Shown piece after piece: positions 61,026 to 63,537 of a DNA stretch of 64,000 nucleotides. Within the stretch, counting starts at the first letter, position 1, and each line of letters opens with the position of its first letter. The notes under the pieces were generated by a model that did no database searches, was not told where the DNA came from, and was given only the letters and a program-made list of their open reading frames with translations. A program made the position numbers and the translations under genes. The stretch comes from Corallococcus sp. AS-1-12. Its GTDB lineage: Bacteria > Myxococcota > Myxococcia > Myxococcales > Myxococcaceae. The stretch covers positions 161,433-225,432 of the forward strand of contig NZ_JAIQDD010000010.1 in assembly GCF_020036995.1 (NCBI RefSeq). The letters are read 5' to 3'.

Positions 61026-61683
61026 CACGACACAGCAGGCGCAGGAGTTGTTCGGCACGCTGGACGAGTACCTGCTCGAGCTGGCCGACGGCCTGGCGAA
61101 GGCCCAGCAGGAGCTGGGGGGCATCTCCGCGGCGGGCGCGCCCGGCCGGCAGTTCACCTACTACGTGCCGAAGCTGGAGTTCGAGCTGCGGATGGACCTG
61201 CGGGTGGAGACGTCCACCACCACCACCGGACCGGTGGCCAACGGGAAGATATTGAAGATGCGGCCCGTGCGGCTGGCGGACGTGGCCTCTTCGCAGACGA
61301 AGACGGAGATCGTCAGCGTGATCCGCGGCAGCTTCGTCGCGGTGCCGGCCAACGAGGGCCTGCCTCCGGTGGTGCTGGACGCCCGCTGCGTCATCGGCGA
61401 CGGGGGCGTGCCGGGCGTGGTGGTGCGCGTGCGCAACGCCGCGGGCGAGGCCCTGCCGGGCGTGGAGGTGGAGTTCAACCTGGACCGCAGGACGACGCAG
61501 TCGCTGTCCGGCGTGGCGCCGCTGGCGGGCACGGACGTGGTGCTCGCGGTGGTGAGGACGGACGCGGCGGGGGAGGCGCGGACGACGCTGCGCGTGGCGG
61601 CCGGCGAGCAGGCCCGCATCCTGGCGCTCACGGTGGACGCCGCGTCGCGGACGCTGGCGCTGTCCTGTGAGGTGGCTCGATGA
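61018..61683 (+). CDS. Family member 5 (221 aa)
   Basis: ATG overlapping the upstream stop (ATGAGTGA). LDEYLLELADGLAKAQQELGG...FTYYVPKLEFELRMDLRVE; the C-terminal portion is divergent. Confidence 0.5.
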   Translation: MSDTTQQAQELFGTLDEYLLELADGLAKAQQELGGISAAGAPGRQFTYYVPKLEFELRMDLRVETSTTTTGPVANGKILKMRPVRLADVASSQTKTEIVSVIRGSFVAVPANEGLPPVVLDARCVIGDGGVPGVVVRVRNAAGEALPGVEVEFNLDRRTTQSLSGVAPLAGTDVVLAVVRTDAAGEARTTLRVAAGEQARILALTVDAASRTLALSCEVAR

Positions 61684-62411
61684 AGGTCCGGGCCGTGTTC
61701 CACAAGGCCACGGGAGTCCCCGTGGCGGGAATGAAGGTGGCGTGGTGGGTCCCCGCGAAGACGGGCACCTTCGAGCTGCGCGACACCGGGGTGACGAACG
61801 AGGCGGGCGTGCTGGAGATGGAGGTCAGCAGCGCCACCTTCGGCTCCCACCTCCGGCTGGGCTCCGCCGGGGTGGCCACCTTCCCGGTGAAGATGAGCAG
61901 CACCCTCATCGACTACGGGACGATGGTCGTCCTGGAGCCCGCGAGGGAGGACGTGCGCGCCGTGTCCTCCGCCGCGGTGGAGCCCACCCAGGAGCCCGCC
62001 CTGGAGGAGGGCACGTCCCTGGTGCTGTCCGACAAGCTGAAGTCGGCGGGCCAGCAGATTGAAGCGGTGCGCGCGTCGCTGACGACGGTGCGGTTGAGCA
62101 CCGTCCGCGTGCGGTGGATGGAGACGACGCCCGAGGGCGTGACGGAGGCGGAGGCCCAGTTCGTGGAGCAGTCGCCCGCCGCGCCCGAGACGGGCGACGC
62201 GCCCGCCCGCGAGGTGCCGGACTTCCGGGGGCTGACGGCCTCGGCGGCCCGGCGGCGCGCGGCGGAGGCGGGGCTGCGGGTGGACCCGATGCCGCTCTTC
62301 GTCAAGGAGCCCGGGCAGTGGGGCCGCGTGCTGCGGCAGGTGCCGGAGCCGGGCAAGCCGCTCGCTTCGGGCCCCGTGCAGTTGATCATTGGCCAGGCGA
62401 TGGAGGGCTGA
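61680..62411 (+). CDS. Protein with C-terminal PASTA domain
   Basis: ATGA overlap with the upstream gene. C-terminus VPDFRGLTASAARRRAAEAGLRVDPMPLFVKEPGQWGRVLRQVPEPGKPLASGPVQLIIG fits PASTA. No signal peptide. Confidence 0.5.
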   Translation: MKVRAVFHKATGVPVAGMKVAWWVPAKTGTFELRDTGVTNEAGVLEMEVSSATFGSHLRLGSAGVATFPVKMSSTLIDYGTMVVLEPAREDVRAVSSAAVEPTQEPALEEGTSLVLSDKLKSAGQQIEAVRASLTTVRLSTVRVRWMETTPEGVTEAEAQFVEQSPAAPETGDAPAREVPDFRGLTASAARRRAAEAGLRVDPMPLFVKEPGQWGRVLRQVPEPGKPLASGPVQLIIGQAMEG

Positions 62412-62414
62412 ACC

Positions 62415-63083
62415 ATGGCGGATTCGAATGACGTCCCCCAGTTGGAGGCGCTGAGCGCGCCGCTGGGCGCGTTGATCTCCTCGGTGGGCCGCGGCGTGGC
62501 GGAGGCGCAGCGGGAGCTGGACGCGGCGACCATCGAGCGGATCCGCGAGCTCTACGCCTCGGACGAGGACCTGGCGGTGGAGCTGCAGCGCATCGGCTAC
62601 CGGCCGACCTGGTACCACATCCCCGAGGCCGAGGCGGAGATCGCCGTGGCGCTGTCCATCACCTCGGAGGAGCGGACGCAGGGGCGCACGCGCCTGAAGA
62701 TGTACGGCGCGCCCCTGGACGCCAGCTACACCAACCGTTTCGCCTACAGCCTGACGGCGCAGTCGCGGCTGAAGTTCCGGGTGGTGCCGGTGCCGCCCTC
62801 GCCCCAGGCGGAGGCGCTGGTGGTGGTGCCGGCGGTGGTGGGGAAGACGGTGGGGGACGCGCGGGCGCTGCTGTCCGCCATCGGCGTGCCCCACCGGTTC
62901 CCCAGCGGCGCGGCGGACGCCGCCCTGGTCCTCTCGGCCTCGGCCGAGCCGGGGACGCTGCTGCCGCGCGGCACCGAGCTGGTGCTCACCGTTCAGACGA
63001 CCGGCGGAGGGAAGCTCCCGCCCACCGGAGTCCTCACCCGCTCGCCCGTCCTGGAGACCGTGGCCGCCGAGCCCTTGAAGTGA
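62415..63083 (+). CDS. Family member 6 with C-terminal PASTA domain
   Basis: ISSVGRGVAEAQRELD...RPTWYHIPEAEAEIAVALSI...YTNRFAYSLTAQSRLKFRVVPVPPSP, then VVVPAVVGKTVGDARALLSAIGVPHRF...GTELVLTV (PASTA-like). Confidence 0.55.
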   Translation: MADSNDVPQLEALSAPLGALISSVGRGVAEAQRELDAATIERIRELYASDEDLAVELQRIGYRPTWYHIPEAEAEIAVALSITSEERTQGRTRLKMYGAPLDASYTNRFAYSLTAQSRLKFRVVPVPPSPQAEALVVVPAVVGKTVGDARALLSAIGVPHRFPSGAADAALVLSASAEPGTLLPRGTELVLTVQTTGGGKLPPTGVLTRSPVLETVAAEPLK

Positions 63084-63102
63084 ACGGACGGTCCGTGCCG
63101 CG

Positions 63103-63537
63103 ATGGAGGCCCCTGGCGCGATGAGTGACGCCATCGACCTGGAGGCCCTGCTGGTGGACCTGCGTGAGTCGCTCGCGCGGGTCCAGGCGCGGCTCGGCGC
63201 CGGCCCCATCGTGCTGGGGCCGGTGGAGCTGGAGCTGCACGGCGCGGTCACCGCGGACGGGACGGGGATGCACTTCACCCCTGGAGGCCCCGGCGAGGTG
63301 CGGGCCGTGTTCGTCCAGCAGGGCCCCGAGGCGGCACCGCCCCCCGCGCCGGAGCTGTTGGGCCTGACGCGGAGCGCCGCCGTGCGCAAGGCTCGCCTGG
63401 CTGGAGCCTCGCTGGAGGTGACGGACGTGCCCTGCCTGTCGCCGGAGCAGGCGGGGCGGGTGTGCTGGCAGCGCCCCGAGGCCGGAGCGCCCCTGACGGA
63501 GGGTCACATCGCGGTGGGACTGTACGTTACCGGCTGA
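63103..63537 (+). CDS. Short family-like protein with C-terminal PASTA domain
   Basis: LVDLRESLARVQARLG...VELELHGAV resembles the family N-terminal half. C-terminus PELLGLTRSAAVRKARLAGASLEVTDVP...GHIAVGLYV (PASTA-like). An alternative start is 63121. Confidence 0.45.
   Translation: MEAPGAMSDAIDLEALLVDLRESLARVQARLGAGPIVLGPVELELHGAVTADGTGMHFTPGGPGEVRAVFVQQGPEAAPPPAPELLGLTRSAAVRKARLAGASLEVTDVPCLSPEQAGRVCWQRPEAGAPLTEGHIAVGLYVTG

What the first reader, a model, noticed from the sequence alone, without database searches (positions are those of the whole stretch)
61680..63537. Three PASTA domains on signal-peptide-less proteins in a Gram-negative myxobacterium
PASTA domains (VPDFRGLT...GL.V...; VVGKTVGDARALLSAIGV...; LLGLTRSAAVRKARLAGASLEV...) are classically extracytoplasmic modules of PBPs and PknB-type kinases in Gram-positives. 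Here they end three consecutive small proteins lacking recognisable export signals. Two of the three are also members of the novel family.
Basis: partly seen in the sequence, partly recalled or inferred. Interest (0 to 1): 0.6.

Follow-up and report, generated by a model that had tools for sequence, protein, structure and literature searches.

The report
Leaderless PASTA proteins in a conserved operon
Three neighbouring genes of a Corallococcus (myxobacterium) genome really do end in cell-wall-binding PASTA domains yet have no export signal, and they belong to an uncharacterised 10-11-gene operon, conserved across many Gram-negative phyla, whose proteins all lack export signals although several carry domains normally found outside the cytoplasm.

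Summary

The genes are the last three of an 11-gene operon (54657-63537). Its G1-G10 order recurs in about 35 loci from Myxococcota, Gamma- and Alphaproteobacteria, SAR324, Nitrospirota, Verrucomicrobiota, Gemmatimonadota and others. Six operon proteins share a family absent from Pfam, NCBIfam, PHROGs and PADLOC: an amphipathic helix plus a long amphipathic β-hairpin. This family is found fused to OmpA-like, PASTA and Ig-like domains. The other two PASTA proteins carry a shorter helix-hairpin module with sub-threshold similarity to Trypco2/Pepco, a pore-forming β-barrel. None of 419 operon proteins has a signal peptide or a transmembrane helix.

My best reading, held with low-moderate confidence, is a self-assembling envelope complex with no signal peptides, tethered to peptidoglycan. 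Function and localisation remain untested.

The parts
54657..55706 (+). G1: 349-aa protein made of repeats that resemble the ribosomal L7/L12 C-terminal domain. First gene of the operon.
   Evidence: Pfam Ribosomal_L12 scores 32.2 bits against a cut-off of 25.9. The orthologue in L007 scores 37.4 bits. It is conserved as the first gene in about 35 loci.
55703..56251 (+). G2: 182-aa TPR protein. Its start overlaps the G1 stop by 4 nt.
   Evidence: The window protein gives weak TPR hits. The consensus of 38 orthologues scores 47 bits for TPR_2. Its position is conserved.
56255..58351 (+). G3: 698-aa family member. A roughly 550-residue insert lies between the two hairpin strands and contains an OmpA-like peptidoglycan-binding domain (residues 314-393).
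   Evidence: Pfam OmpA scores 43.4 bits against a cut-off of 27.2, and NCBIfam gives Pal/YiaD/MotB-type hits. The N- and C-terminal parts match the family (sequence; HMM annotation). In the alignment of 23 orthologues the Asp, the Asn-x-x-Leu and the Arg of the G-x-x-D...N-x-x-L-[S/G]-x-x-R-[A/G/V] motif are present in all rows.
58361..58864 (+). G4: 167-aa minimal family member (helix plus long amphipathic β-hairpin).
58887..59459 (+). G5: 190-aa family member.
   Evidence: It aligns with G4 and G6. It forms a conserved orthologous group in 44 ORFs.
59478..60068 (+). G6: 196-aa family member.
60087..61025 (+). G7: 312-aa highly charged coiled-coil protein with a conserved N-terminal SWEDLL motif.
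   Evidence: Translation. There is no credible Pfam hit. It is conserved in position but diverges quickly.
61018..61683 (+). G8: 221-aa protein with an N-terminal family-like helix-hairpin and a C-terminal Ig-like β-sandwich (weak Big_1).
   Evidence: Big_1 scores 21 bits, and orthologues reach up to 26.4 bits. Alignment. Its stop overlaps the G9 start as ATGA.
61680..62411 (+). G9: first PASTA protein, 243 aa. It has an N-terminal Ig-like β-sandwich (residues 2-57), a linker, a short helix-plus-two-strand module (about residues 112-178), and PASTA (residues 178-237, nt 62211-62390).
   Evidence: PASTA scores 31.4 bits and Big_1 21.9 bits. Module alignment. Orthologues in Halomonas, Pseudomonas abyssi and Neptuniibacter keep the PASTA domain. 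The ORF is maximal and has no signal peptide.
62415..63083 (+). G10: second PASTA protein, 222 aa. Family domain at residues 1-135 and PASTA at residues 136-194 (nt 62820-62996).
63121..63537 (+). G11: third PASTA protein, 138 aa (144 aa from the alternative ATG at 63103). Helix-plus-two-strand module at residues 1-73 and PASTA at nt 63349-63525.
   Evidence: PASTA scores 19.7 bits and Trypco2 19.5 bits. It is 42% identical to the G9 PASTA. Orthologues score 36.7 and 41.2 bits. A GGAGG lies before the ATG at 63121. Only 7 close homologues were found. It is present in only some loci.

Best explanation
The three PASTA domains are genuine. They are C-terminal appendages of three subunits of a conserved multi-protein assembly in which no component has a signal peptide.

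The core of the assembly is a set of paralogous subunits: G3-G6, G8 and G10, plus the shorter modules of G9 and G11. Each subunit has an N-terminal amphipathic helix and a long amphipathic β-hairpin. Such a hairpin cannot be stable alone, so the subunits most likely oligomerise into a β-barrel or β-sheet structure. I infer that this structure inserts into the inner membrane from the cytoplasmic side, in the manner of Pepco/Trypco2 barrels. Wall-binding modules would then engage peptidoglycan or its lipid-linked precursors and tether the assembly to the wall. These modules are the OmpA-like domain at the hairpin tip of G3 and the PASTA domains after the last strand of G9, G10 and G11. G1 (L7/L12-like repeats), G2 (TPR) and G7 (coiled coil) would be cytoplasmic scaffolds or chaperones.

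Shown here:
- the identity of the domains
- paralogy within the family
- absence of signal peptides and TM helices
- conservation of the operon
- the amphipathic hairpin, predicted by AF2 and by column hydropathy
- the intact OmpA-type motif

Inferred only:
- oligomerisation
- membrane insertion
- topology
- peptidoglycan binding by these PASTA domains
- the physiological role (envelope tether, or a regulated pore or cell-death effector)
For: - PASTA is confirmed by HMM, paralogy, orthology and fold.
- The operon order G1-G10 is kept in about 35 loci across at least 8 phyla, and PASTA on G9 and G10 and OmpA on G3 are retained in Gammaproteobacteria.
- Genes are tightly spaced or overlapping.
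- G10 is homologous to G4 (hhalign 99.4%).
- AF2 predicts a helix plus a hairpin of two roughly 30-residue strands in G4, and two 14-residue strands in G10.
- Hydrophobic and polar columns alternate along both strands, and the tip is Gly-rich.
- Every domain found fused to the family is of an extracytoplasmic or cell-surface type: OmpA, PASTA, Big_1-like, Big_2 (5 of 64 long members) and He_PIG.
- In the alignment of 23 G3 orthologues the Asp, the Asn-x-x-Leu and the Arg of the OmpA-type motif are present in all rows.
- Trypco2 is the only Pfam family that recurs on the pre-PASTA module: 4 of 30 members, and the module consensus scores 21.5 bits (E 2.9e-4) over model positions 1-47 of 78.
- Pepco/Trypco2 is reported to form 9-10-mer β-barrels with a basal amphipathic helix, a hydrophobic exterior and a Pro- and charge-rich C-terminal tail (bioRxiv 10.1101/2025.11.14.688446). 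The family here ends its last strand in V-P-V-P-P-P followed by a charged tail or a PASTA domain.
Against: - None of 419 operon proteins has a signal peptide or TM helix, and no translocase, protease or NTPase is encoded in or next to the operon. How folded PASTA, Ig-like or OmpA-like domains would cross the membrane is therefore unexplained.
- The topology is awkward. The OmpA-like insert sits at the hairpin tip (trans side), while the PASTA domains follow the last strand (cis side, next to the N-terminal helix), so both cannot easily face the wall in a simple membrane-spanning barrel.
- The Trypco2 similarity is below the gathering cut-off (21.5 against 24.2 bits) and covers only the helix and first strand. 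The module-to-family link is weak (hhalign 4-55%).
- The monomer AF2 models have low confidence at the hairpin tips.
- A constitutive inner-membrane β-barrel would be toxic, and no regulator is evident.
- Some PASTA domains are reported not to bind muropeptides (my recollection of work on PonA2 and PBP2x; not checked here).
Confidence: 0.35

Rival explanations
1. The complex is wholly cytoplasmic. The PASTA and OmpA-like domains never meet the wall. Instead they bind soluble or lipid-linked cell-wall precursors or recycled muropeptides on the cytoplasmic side (UDP-MurNAc-pentapeptide, lipid I/II, anhydro-muropeptides). The assembly would then sense or sequester wall-metabolism intermediates.
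For: - There is no export signal in 419 proteins from about 50 loci, and no translocase in the operon.
- G1 carries a domain type known from the ribosome (L7/L12 C-terminal domain), G2 is TPR, and G7 is a charged coiled coil. All three are typical of cytoplasmic proteins.
- The motif conserved in the OmpA-like domain is the one that, in characterised OmpA-family proteins, contacts the diaminopimelate of the peptide stem (my knowledge, not tested here). Those stems also exist in cytoplasmic precursors.
Against: - Ig-like Big_1, Big_2 and He_PIG fusions have no obvious role in the cytoplasm.
- The long amphipathic hairpins with a Gly-rich tip are unusual for a soluble sensor.
- No output domain (kinase, DNA-binding domain or enzyme) is present in any operon protein.
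Confidence: 0.22
2. The PASTA fold is used here only as a protein-protein or dimerisation module, with no wall ligand. On this view the three domains simply hold together a structural assembly of unknown cellular role.
For: - PASTA-mediated dimerisation of PknB-type kinases is discussed in the literature.
- The PASTA of G10 is too divergent from that of G9 to align by BLASTP.
Against: - PASTA co-occurs in the same operon with a second, unrelated wall-binding domain type whose binding motif is intact (OmpA-like).
- PASTA is retained on G9 and G10 across phyla, and a related small system in Elioraea carries a protein with three PASTA domains (133 bits). This points to a shared ligand rather than a chance scaffold.
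Confidence: 0.15
3. The operon builds a particle or assembly in the cytoplasm that is released by cell lysis, like tailocins or virion proteins, which also lack signal peptides. It would then act on cell walls from outside, of kin or of prey. The PASTA, OmpA-like and Ig-like domains would be the target-binding parts.
For: - Wall-binding and Ig-like domains on proteins without signal peptides are typical of phage virion proteins and endolysins (general knowledge).
- Corallococcus is a predator.
- One BFVD viral protein of unknown function has a similar overall predicted fold to G4 (A0A516MP19, E 6.7e-4, TM about 0.5).
Against: - There are no PHROGs hits for the family, no match in 50,697 phage genomes and none in IMG/VR contigs.
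- The operon has no lysis cassette, capsid, tail or sheath genes.
- Most carriers are non-predatory marine or soil bacteria.
Confidence: 0.1
4. Artefact: either the PASTA calls are chance matches in high-GC sequence, or the real genes have upstream signal peptides missed through wrong start codons.
For: - The third domain is below the Pfam cut-off (19.7 against 23.2 bits).
- GC content is 72-76%, and long spurious ORFs exist on the opposite strand (for example 61161-63389(-)).
Against: - Two domains are above the cut-off, and the third is a 42%-identical paralogue of one of them.
- Orthologues in low-GC marine Gammaproteobacteria keep the PASTA domain.
- The ORFs are maximal, and the family's conserved N-terminal helix starts within about 10-20 residues of the Met in all phyla.
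Confidence: 0.02

Closest known systems
PASTA domains of PknB/PrkC/StkP-type Hanks kinases and class B PBPs (PBP2x, S. aureus PBP1)
   Different: - There is no kinase or transpeptidase domain and no transmembrane anchor or signal peptide.
- There is a single PASTA domain per protein rather than tandem arrays.
- It is attached to a helix-hairpin oligomerisation-type module.
- The hosts are diderm bacteria.
Pepco (Trypco1/Trypco2) protease-activated β-barrel pore effectors of anti-phage systems (bioRxiv 10.1101/2025.11.14.688446; PMC7159879)
   Same: These are small proteins without signal peptides, with an N-terminal amphipathic helix, amphipathic β-strands and a Pro- and charge-rich segment after the last strand. 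Trypco2 is the only recurrent (sub-threshold) Pfam hit on the pre-PASTA module of G9 and G11.
   Different: - The score is below the gathering cut-off (21.5 against 24.2 bits), and only the helix and first strand align.
- There is no adjacent trypsin- or caspase-like protease, STAND or other NTPase in about 50 loci.
- The subunits are 6-8 distinct paralogues in a fixed order rather than one homo-oligomeric protein.
- A folded domain (PASTA) replaces the cleavable tail.
- There are no PADLOC hits.
iSTAND ternary conflict systems with peptidoglycan-associating effectors (PEGA, OmpA, PASTA, Sel1) in Gram-negative bacteria (Kaur et al. 2020, PMC7159879)
   Same: PASTA and OmpA-like domains are used together in diderm bacteria outside the PBP and kinase context.
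   Different: In iSTAND systems these domains are typically preceded by a TM segment and are coupled to vWA-MoxR and STAND NTPases. Here there is neither a TM segment nor any NTPase.
OmpA/Pal/MotB-type peptidoglycan anchors
   Same: G3 carries an OmpA-like domain above the Pfam cut-off, with the motif's Asp, Asn-x-x-Leu and Arg present in all 23 aligned orthologues.
   Different: Known members are lipoproteins, β-barrel fusions or TM-anchored proteins exported by Sec. Here the domain is an insert at the tip of a β-hairpin in a protein with no signal peptide.
Phage endolysins and holin-dependent release (wall-binding proteins with no signal peptide that wait in the cytoplasm)
   Same: The logic is the same: wall-binding domains are made without export signals and need a membrane lesion to reach the wall (general knowledge).
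   Different: The operon has no recognisable muralytic domain or holin, no phage context and no PHROGs or phage-genome hits.

Membership tests
PASTA domain (Pfam PF03793) | Profile HMM score at or above the curated gathering cut-off (23.2 bits) | tested here: met
   G9 scores 31.4 bits and G10 31.8 bits. G11 scores 19.7 bits alone, below the cut-off. It is, however, 42% identical to the G9 PASTA, and its orthologues score 36.7 and 41.2 bits. All 11 G9, G10 and G11 proteins in four loci hit PASTA.
PASTA domain (Pfam PF03793) | Small alpha/beta PASTA fold superimposable on solved PASTA units | tested here: met
   [not shown]
Classical PASTA proteins (PBP or Hanks-kinase sensors) | Extracytoplasmic placement through a signal peptide or an N-terminal TM anchor | tested here: not met
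   The ORFs are maximal and show no hydrophobic N-terminus, lipobox, Tat motif or TM segment. The same holds for 419 operon proteins. This was a hydropathy heuristic, not SignalP.
Classical PASTA proteins (PBP or Hanks-kinase sensors) | Fusion to a transpeptidase or Ser/Thr kinase domain | tested here: not met
   Neither domain occurs in any operon protein. The Pkinase gene at 51900-53540(-) is a separate, divergently placed gene, and it is not seen next to the operon in L003, L005 or L007.
Classical PASTA proteins (PBP or Hanks-kinase sensors) | Binding of muropeptides, lipid II or beta-lactams | not testable with these tools
   This needs purified domains and binding assays.
Trypco2 / Pepco (Pfam PF19631) | Profile HMM score at or above the gathering cut-off (24.2 bits) | tested here: not met
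   G11 scores 19.5-21.2 bits. 4 of 30 module sequences hit at E<10. The module consensus scores 21.5 bits over model positions 1-47 of 78.
Trypco2 / Pepco (Pfam PF19631) | Encoded next to a trypsin-like or caspase-like protease that cleaves its C-terminal tail | tested here: not met
   No peptidase domain was found in the operon or in the small variants. No recurrent protease neighbour appears across loci, although neighbour clusters were not all Pfam-scanned.
Trypco2 / Pepco (Pfam PF19631) | N-terminal amphipathic helix, then amphipathic β-strands, then a Pro- and charge-rich C-terminal segment | tested here: met
   AF2 secondary structure, the column hydropathy pattern and the V-P-V-P-P-P motif with charged tails in the sequences. 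This is an architectural resemblance only.
Trypco2 / Pepco (Pfam PF19631) | Detergent-resistant 9-10-mer β-barrel that permeabilises membranes | not testable with these tools
This needs SDS-PAGE, cryo-EM and toxicity assays.
OmpA-like peptidoglycan-binding domain (PF00691), for G3 | HMM above the cut-off and conserved Asp/Arg binding motif | tested here: met
   43.4 bits against 27.2. Halomonas and P. abyssi orthologues score 37.7 and 47.5 bits. In the alignment of 23 orthologues the motif's Asp, Asn-x-x-Leu and Arg are present in all rows.
Phage-derived particle / tailocin | Homology of components to phage structural or lysis proteins, or occurrence in viral genomes | tested here: not met
   - PHROGs gives nothing for the family. 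The only strong hit is to the G3 stretch that includes its OmpA-like domain (residues 257-396), in a PHROG of unknown function.
- tblastn against phage genomes gives no match.
- The IMG/VR scan finds no relative.
- There is one marginal BFVD fold hit.

The most novel reading that the evidence does not exclude
The operon encodes a previously unrecognised envelope machine found in many diderm phyla. It would be a hetero-oligomeric β-barrel built from six or more fixed paralogous helix-hairpin subunits that are distant relatives of Pepco pores. The barrel would insert from the cytoplasm without Sec or Tat and carry wall-binding domains (OmpA-like, PASTA) and Ig-like domains to the peptidoglycan. 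That would be either a new signal-peptide-independent route for placing domains in the periplasm or a wall-tethered, regulated pore for programmed lysis or defence.
Probability: 0.25. Interest if true: 0.85.

Novelty: new variant of a known kind. Interest (0 to 1): 0.65.

Why it matters
PASTA and OmpA-like domains are textbook markers of the extracytoplasmic side of the envelope. Here both occur, together with Ig-like domains, on proteins that have no export signal in any of about 50 loci from at least 8 phyla. They sit in an operon with no translocase.

There are two ways to read this:
- These domains work in the cytoplasm, which would change how such domain hits are interpreted. It would also point to cytoplasmic recognition of wall precursors.
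- They reach the wall by an unknown route that needs no signal peptide, possibly through self-inserting β-hairpin subunits related to Pepco pores.

Either answer would be new for envelope biology.

The system is experimentally tractable. It is present in cultured Halomonas, Neptuniibacter, Amphritea, Halopseudomonas and Corallococcus strains. The helix-hairpin family (about 1,260 clusters at 50% identity) is not yet in Pfam, NCBIfam, PHROGs or PADLOC.

Tried and rejected
- **Hidden signal peptides or wrong starts.** Rejected. The ORFs are maximal and the conserved N-terminal helix begins almost at the Met.
- **Known defence system.** PADLOC gave nothing. No protease, NTPase or nuclease lies in or near the operon.
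- **Phage or tailocin origin.** There are no PHROGs hits for the family, no phage-genome match and no IMG/VR match. Only one marginal BFVD fold hit appeared.
- **Plasmid-borne mobile element.** The single hit was weak, on a Sphaerotilus megaplasmid.
- **AFDB Foldseek search.** The library was not available.
- **Direct profile-profile test against Trypco2.** No Trypco2 sequences could be obtained. Neither paper's held supplements contain them, and searching with G11 returned only 7 close orthologues. I therefore relied on hmmscan of individual module sequences and their consensus, which stays below threshold.
- **DUF2589.** One weak consensus hit (13.6 bits), and the literature search was uninformative. 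Not pursued.
- **Terminator scan after G11.** Nothing found.
- **Literature on PASTA proteins without signal peptides or this operon.** Four searches found no description of it.

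
Full report
**1. The observation**

The + strand of 61680-63537 carries three consecutive ORFs: 61680-62411 (243 aa, here G9), 62415-63083 (222 aa, G10) and 63103/63121-63537 (144/138 aa, G11).

- Pfam PF03793 (PASTA) scores 31.4 bits (E 1.8e-7) on G9 residues 178-237 and 31.8 bits (E 1.4e-7) on G10 residues 136-194. The gathering cut-off is 23.2. G11 scores only 19.7 bits (E 8e-4).
- The third domain is nevertheless real. It is 42% identical to the G9 PASTA (BLASTP E 9e-10). The proteins at the same operon position in two distant loci score 36.7 and 41.2 bits.
- A profile of 65 G10 orthologues finds only PknB PASTA chains in the PDB (2kui, E 9e-7).

**2. No export signals**

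Each of the three ORFs already begins at the first start codon after an in-frame stop, so no upstream signal peptide can have been missed.

A hydropathy, lipobox and Tat scan found nothing in any operon protein of four loci. Two neighbouring window genes, 50176-50991(-) and 51009-51839(-), gave clear signal or lipoprotein peptides as positive controls.

I extended the scan to 419 operon proteins from about 50 loci. It found one marginal N-terminal window, which contains Arg and Asp, and two marginal internal windows. There was no credible signal peptide or TM helix. This is a heuristic and not SignalP.

**3. Organism and context**

The window is from a Corallococcus chromosome (CP102579.1 / CP172866.1). 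G4 is 100% identical to a C. interemptor protein.

The three genes end an 11-gene operon at 54657-63537. Junctions are overlapping or very short (ATGA at G8/G9; 3 nt with a GGAGGG at G9/G10). The genes are:

| Gene | Description |
|---|---|
| G1 | Repeats of an L7/L12-C-terminal-like domain (32.2 bits here, 37.4 in an orthologue) |
| G2 | TPR protein |
| G3 | 698 aa with an OmpA-like domain (43.4 bits) |
| G4-G6 | Three small paralogues |
| G7 | Charged coiled coil |
| G8 | Family-like N-terminus plus Ig-like β-sandwich |
| G9-G11 | The three PASTA proteins |

**4. Conservation**

G10 has 164 homologues at 90% clustering. Those listed are almost all about 200 aa with PASTA precomputed, and they come from Myxococcota, Longimicrobium, Gemmatimonadota, Polyangiaceae and others.

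Contexts in three distant loci show the same gene order. A scan of one genome per species returned 55 loci. Local HMM annotation shows G1-G10 in the same order in about 35 of them. These include:

- Halomonas, Neptuniibacter, Amphritea, Halopseudomonas, Pseudomonas abyssi, Marinobacterium, Saccharophagus
- Sphingomonadales, Brevundimonas
- SAR324, Nitrospirota, Opitutales, Gemmatimonadales, Latescibacterota

PASTA on G9 and G10 and OmpA on G3 are retained in Halomonas, P. abyssi and Neptuniibacter. G11 is present only in some lineages.

Smaller 2-5-gene variants also exist. They combine family members with coiled-coil proteins. In Elioraea one variant includes a protein with three PASTA domains (133 bits).

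No protease, NTPase, translocase or lysis gene is associated with the operon or its variants.

**5. The 'novel family'**

G4 and the N-terminal 135 residues of G10 are homologous (hhalign 99.4%, E 2.7e-21). G3, G5, G6 and G8 align with them.

- Curated libraries: no credible hit for the family itself in Pfam, NCBIfam, PHROGs or PADLOC.
- Solved structures: no sequence relative.
- Family size: an exhaustive HMM search finds 1,264 cluster representatives at E<=1e-3 among 1.84 billion.

AlphaFold predicts an N-terminal helix followed by a very long β-hairpin. In G4 the strands are 74-103 and 111-139. In G10 they are 72-85 and 110-123. Confidence is low at the tips. Across the alignments, hydrophobic and polar columns alternate along both strands, and the G4 tip is Gly-rich. 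The last strand ends in V-P-V-P-P-P, followed by a charged tail or, in G10, a PASTA domain.

In G3 the OmpA-like domain lies in a roughly 550-residue insert between the two strands, that is, at the hairpin tip. The Asp, the Asn-x-x-Leu and the Arg of its OmpA-type motif are present in all 23 aligned orthologues.

Among 64 longer family members the only fused Pfam domains are Big_2 (5), PASTA (3), He_PIG (1) and a single Dbr1_C hit. With that one exception, every domain found fused to the family is of an extracytoplasmic or cell-surface type: OmpA, PASTA, Big_1-like, Big_2 and He_PIG.

**6. G9 and G11**

These two share a distinct short module directly before the PASTA domain: a helix, a strand of the form 'f-R-L-G-k-v-x-l-x-L-K-G', a loop, and a strand of the form 'L-S-x-l-x-L-x-l-x-P'.

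Trypco2 (PF19631) is the only Pfam family that recurs on this module. It hits 4 of 30 sequences, and the module consensus scores 21.5 bits (E 2.9e-4) over model positions 1-47 of 78. This is below the cut-off of 24.2.

The module's helix aligns weakly but consistently with the N-terminal helix of all six family subgroups (hhalign 4-55%).

G10 is a clear member. G9 and G11 carry a shorter module that may be related.

**7. Mechanistic reading**

Trypco1/2 were defined as small proteins that co-occur with trypsin-like peptidases in conflict systems (PMC7159879). Under the name Pepco they were recently reported to form pre-assembled 9-10-mer β-barrels. These have a basal amphipathic helix, a hydrophobic exterior, a charged lumen and a Pro- and charge-rich C-terminal tail. 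Cleavage of that tail activates a membrane pore (bioRxiv 10.1101/2025.11.14.688446).

The family here has the same architectural logic. It differs in three ways: it consists of six to eight fixed paralogues, it has no protease partner, and it carries folded wall-binding or Ig-like domains at the hairpin tip or after the last strand.

I therefore favour a hetero-oligomeric β-structure, made of subunits without signal peptides, that engages the inner membrane and is tethered to peptidoglycan by the OmpA-like and PASTA domains. G1, G2 and G7 would be cytoplasmic scaffolds or chaperones. My confidence is about 0.35.

Weak points:
- The Trypco2 link is below threshold.
- No mechanism is evident for moving folded domains across the membrane.
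- The tip (OmpA-like) and base (PASTA) positions are topologically inconsistent for a simple membrane-spanning barrel.
- A constitutive pore would be toxic.

**8. Rivals**

| Rival | Confidence | Main support | Main objection |
|---|---|---|---|
| (a) Wholly cytoplasmic complex; PASTA and OmpA-like domains bind wall precursors or recycled muropeptides | about 0.22 | Total lack of export signals; the cytoplasmic character of G1, G2 and G7 | Ig-like fusions; no output domain |
| (c) A particle released by lysis that acts on walls from outside | about 0.10 | General analogy to virion proteins | No phage signal at all |
| (d) Artefact | about 0.02 | Third domain below the Pfam cut-off | Refuted |

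**9. Comparison with known systems, and novelty**

The domains are bona fide PASTA. The proteins fail two context features of classical PASTA proteins: an export signal or TM anchor, and fusion to a PBP or kinase domain.

PASTA in diderm conflict systems has been noted before (iSTAND), but there it is typically preceded by a TM segment and coupled to NTPases.

Databases already label G9 and G10 as 'PASTA domain-containing protein'. The domain call itself is therefore not new.

What appears to be undescribed is:
- the architecture without any signal peptide
- the helix-hairpin family
- the conserved operon

Four literature searches found nothing on it, within the limits of the held library.

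I classify the finding as a new variant of a known kind. There is a real chance, about 0.25, that the operon as a whole is a new kind of envelope system.

Interest is 0.65. A cell-envelope specialist would find conserved PASTA, OmpA-like and Ig-like proteins without signal peptides surprising. The question of where these domains are, and how they get there, is directly testable in cultured carriers.

Noticed in passing
window 54657-55706 (+): G1, the first gene of the operon, is built of about four repeats resembling the C-terminal domain of ribosomal protein L7/L12. It scores 32.2 bits here and 37.4 bits in the L007 orthologue, against a cut-off of 25.9. This is an unusual domain to find repeated in a non-ribosomal protein. 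Its role (GTPase binding? ClpS-like adaptor?) is unknown.
   Followed up: partly
window 56255-58351 (+): In G3 the OmpA-like domain sits inside a roughly 550-residue insert between the two strands of the family's β-hairpin, that is, at the hairpin tip. In other lineages (L005, L007, Neptuniibacter, Amphritea) the same operon position holds a roughly 200-aa version without the insert.
   Followed up: partly
L063 6631-9410 (Sphaerotilus sulfidivorans megaplasmid NZ_CP035710.1); also L050 9523-12779, L053 7546-10627, L055 2334-5009, L059 9749-12882: A minimal variant of about five genes, all annotated as hypothetical: two family members flanked by small proteins and followed by a roughly 280-370-aa coiled-coil protein. 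It occurs in Betaproteobacteria, Desulfuromonadota and MAGs labelled Gammaproteobacteria, Clostridia and Actinomycetota. It may be the ancestral core of the system.
   Followed up: partly
L049 9330-11746 (Elioraea tepidiphila); similar in L048 and L052: A three-gene variant: a G6-like family member, a G10-like protein that has lost its PASTA domain (about 130 aa), and a 445-aa protein with a coiled coil, three tandem PASTA domains (133 bits) and a C-terminal extension.
   Followed up: partly
L007 12276-16717; L014 10942-13197; L021-L024 downstream of G10: In some Gammaproteobacteria the operon is followed by one or two roughly 720-aa proteins with a strongly hydrophobic C-terminal region (KD19 about 2.5-2.7), and sometimes also by a roughly 450-500-aa protein. 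These are lineage-specific accessory genes of unknown function.
   Followed up: no
model of window 58361-58864 against BFVD: One viral protein of unknown function (UniProt A0A516MP19, 178 aa) has a similar overall predicted fold (Foldseek E 6.7e-4, TM about 0.5, 15% identity). However, no family relative was found in IMG/VR contigs or in phage genomes.
   Followed up: partly
[not shown]
   Followed up: no
window 61161-63389 (-) and 55268-58894 (-): Very long antisense ORFs (742 and 1,208 aa) overlap the operon. They are rich in Arg, Gly, Ala and His, as expected for spurious ORFs opposite genes in 72-76% GC DNA, and they should not be annotated.
   Followed up: no
window 47320-50145 (+), 50176-51839 (-), 51900-53540 (-), 63590-64000 (+): Neighbouring genes that are not conserved with the operon:
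- an ADP-forming acyl-CoA synthetase fused to a GNAT acetyltransferase (Pat-like protein acetyltransferase architecture)
- two secreted or lipoprotein genes
- a Hanks-type Ser/Thr kinase (546 aa)
- a DEAD/DEAH helicase with DUF3516 downstream
   Followed up: no
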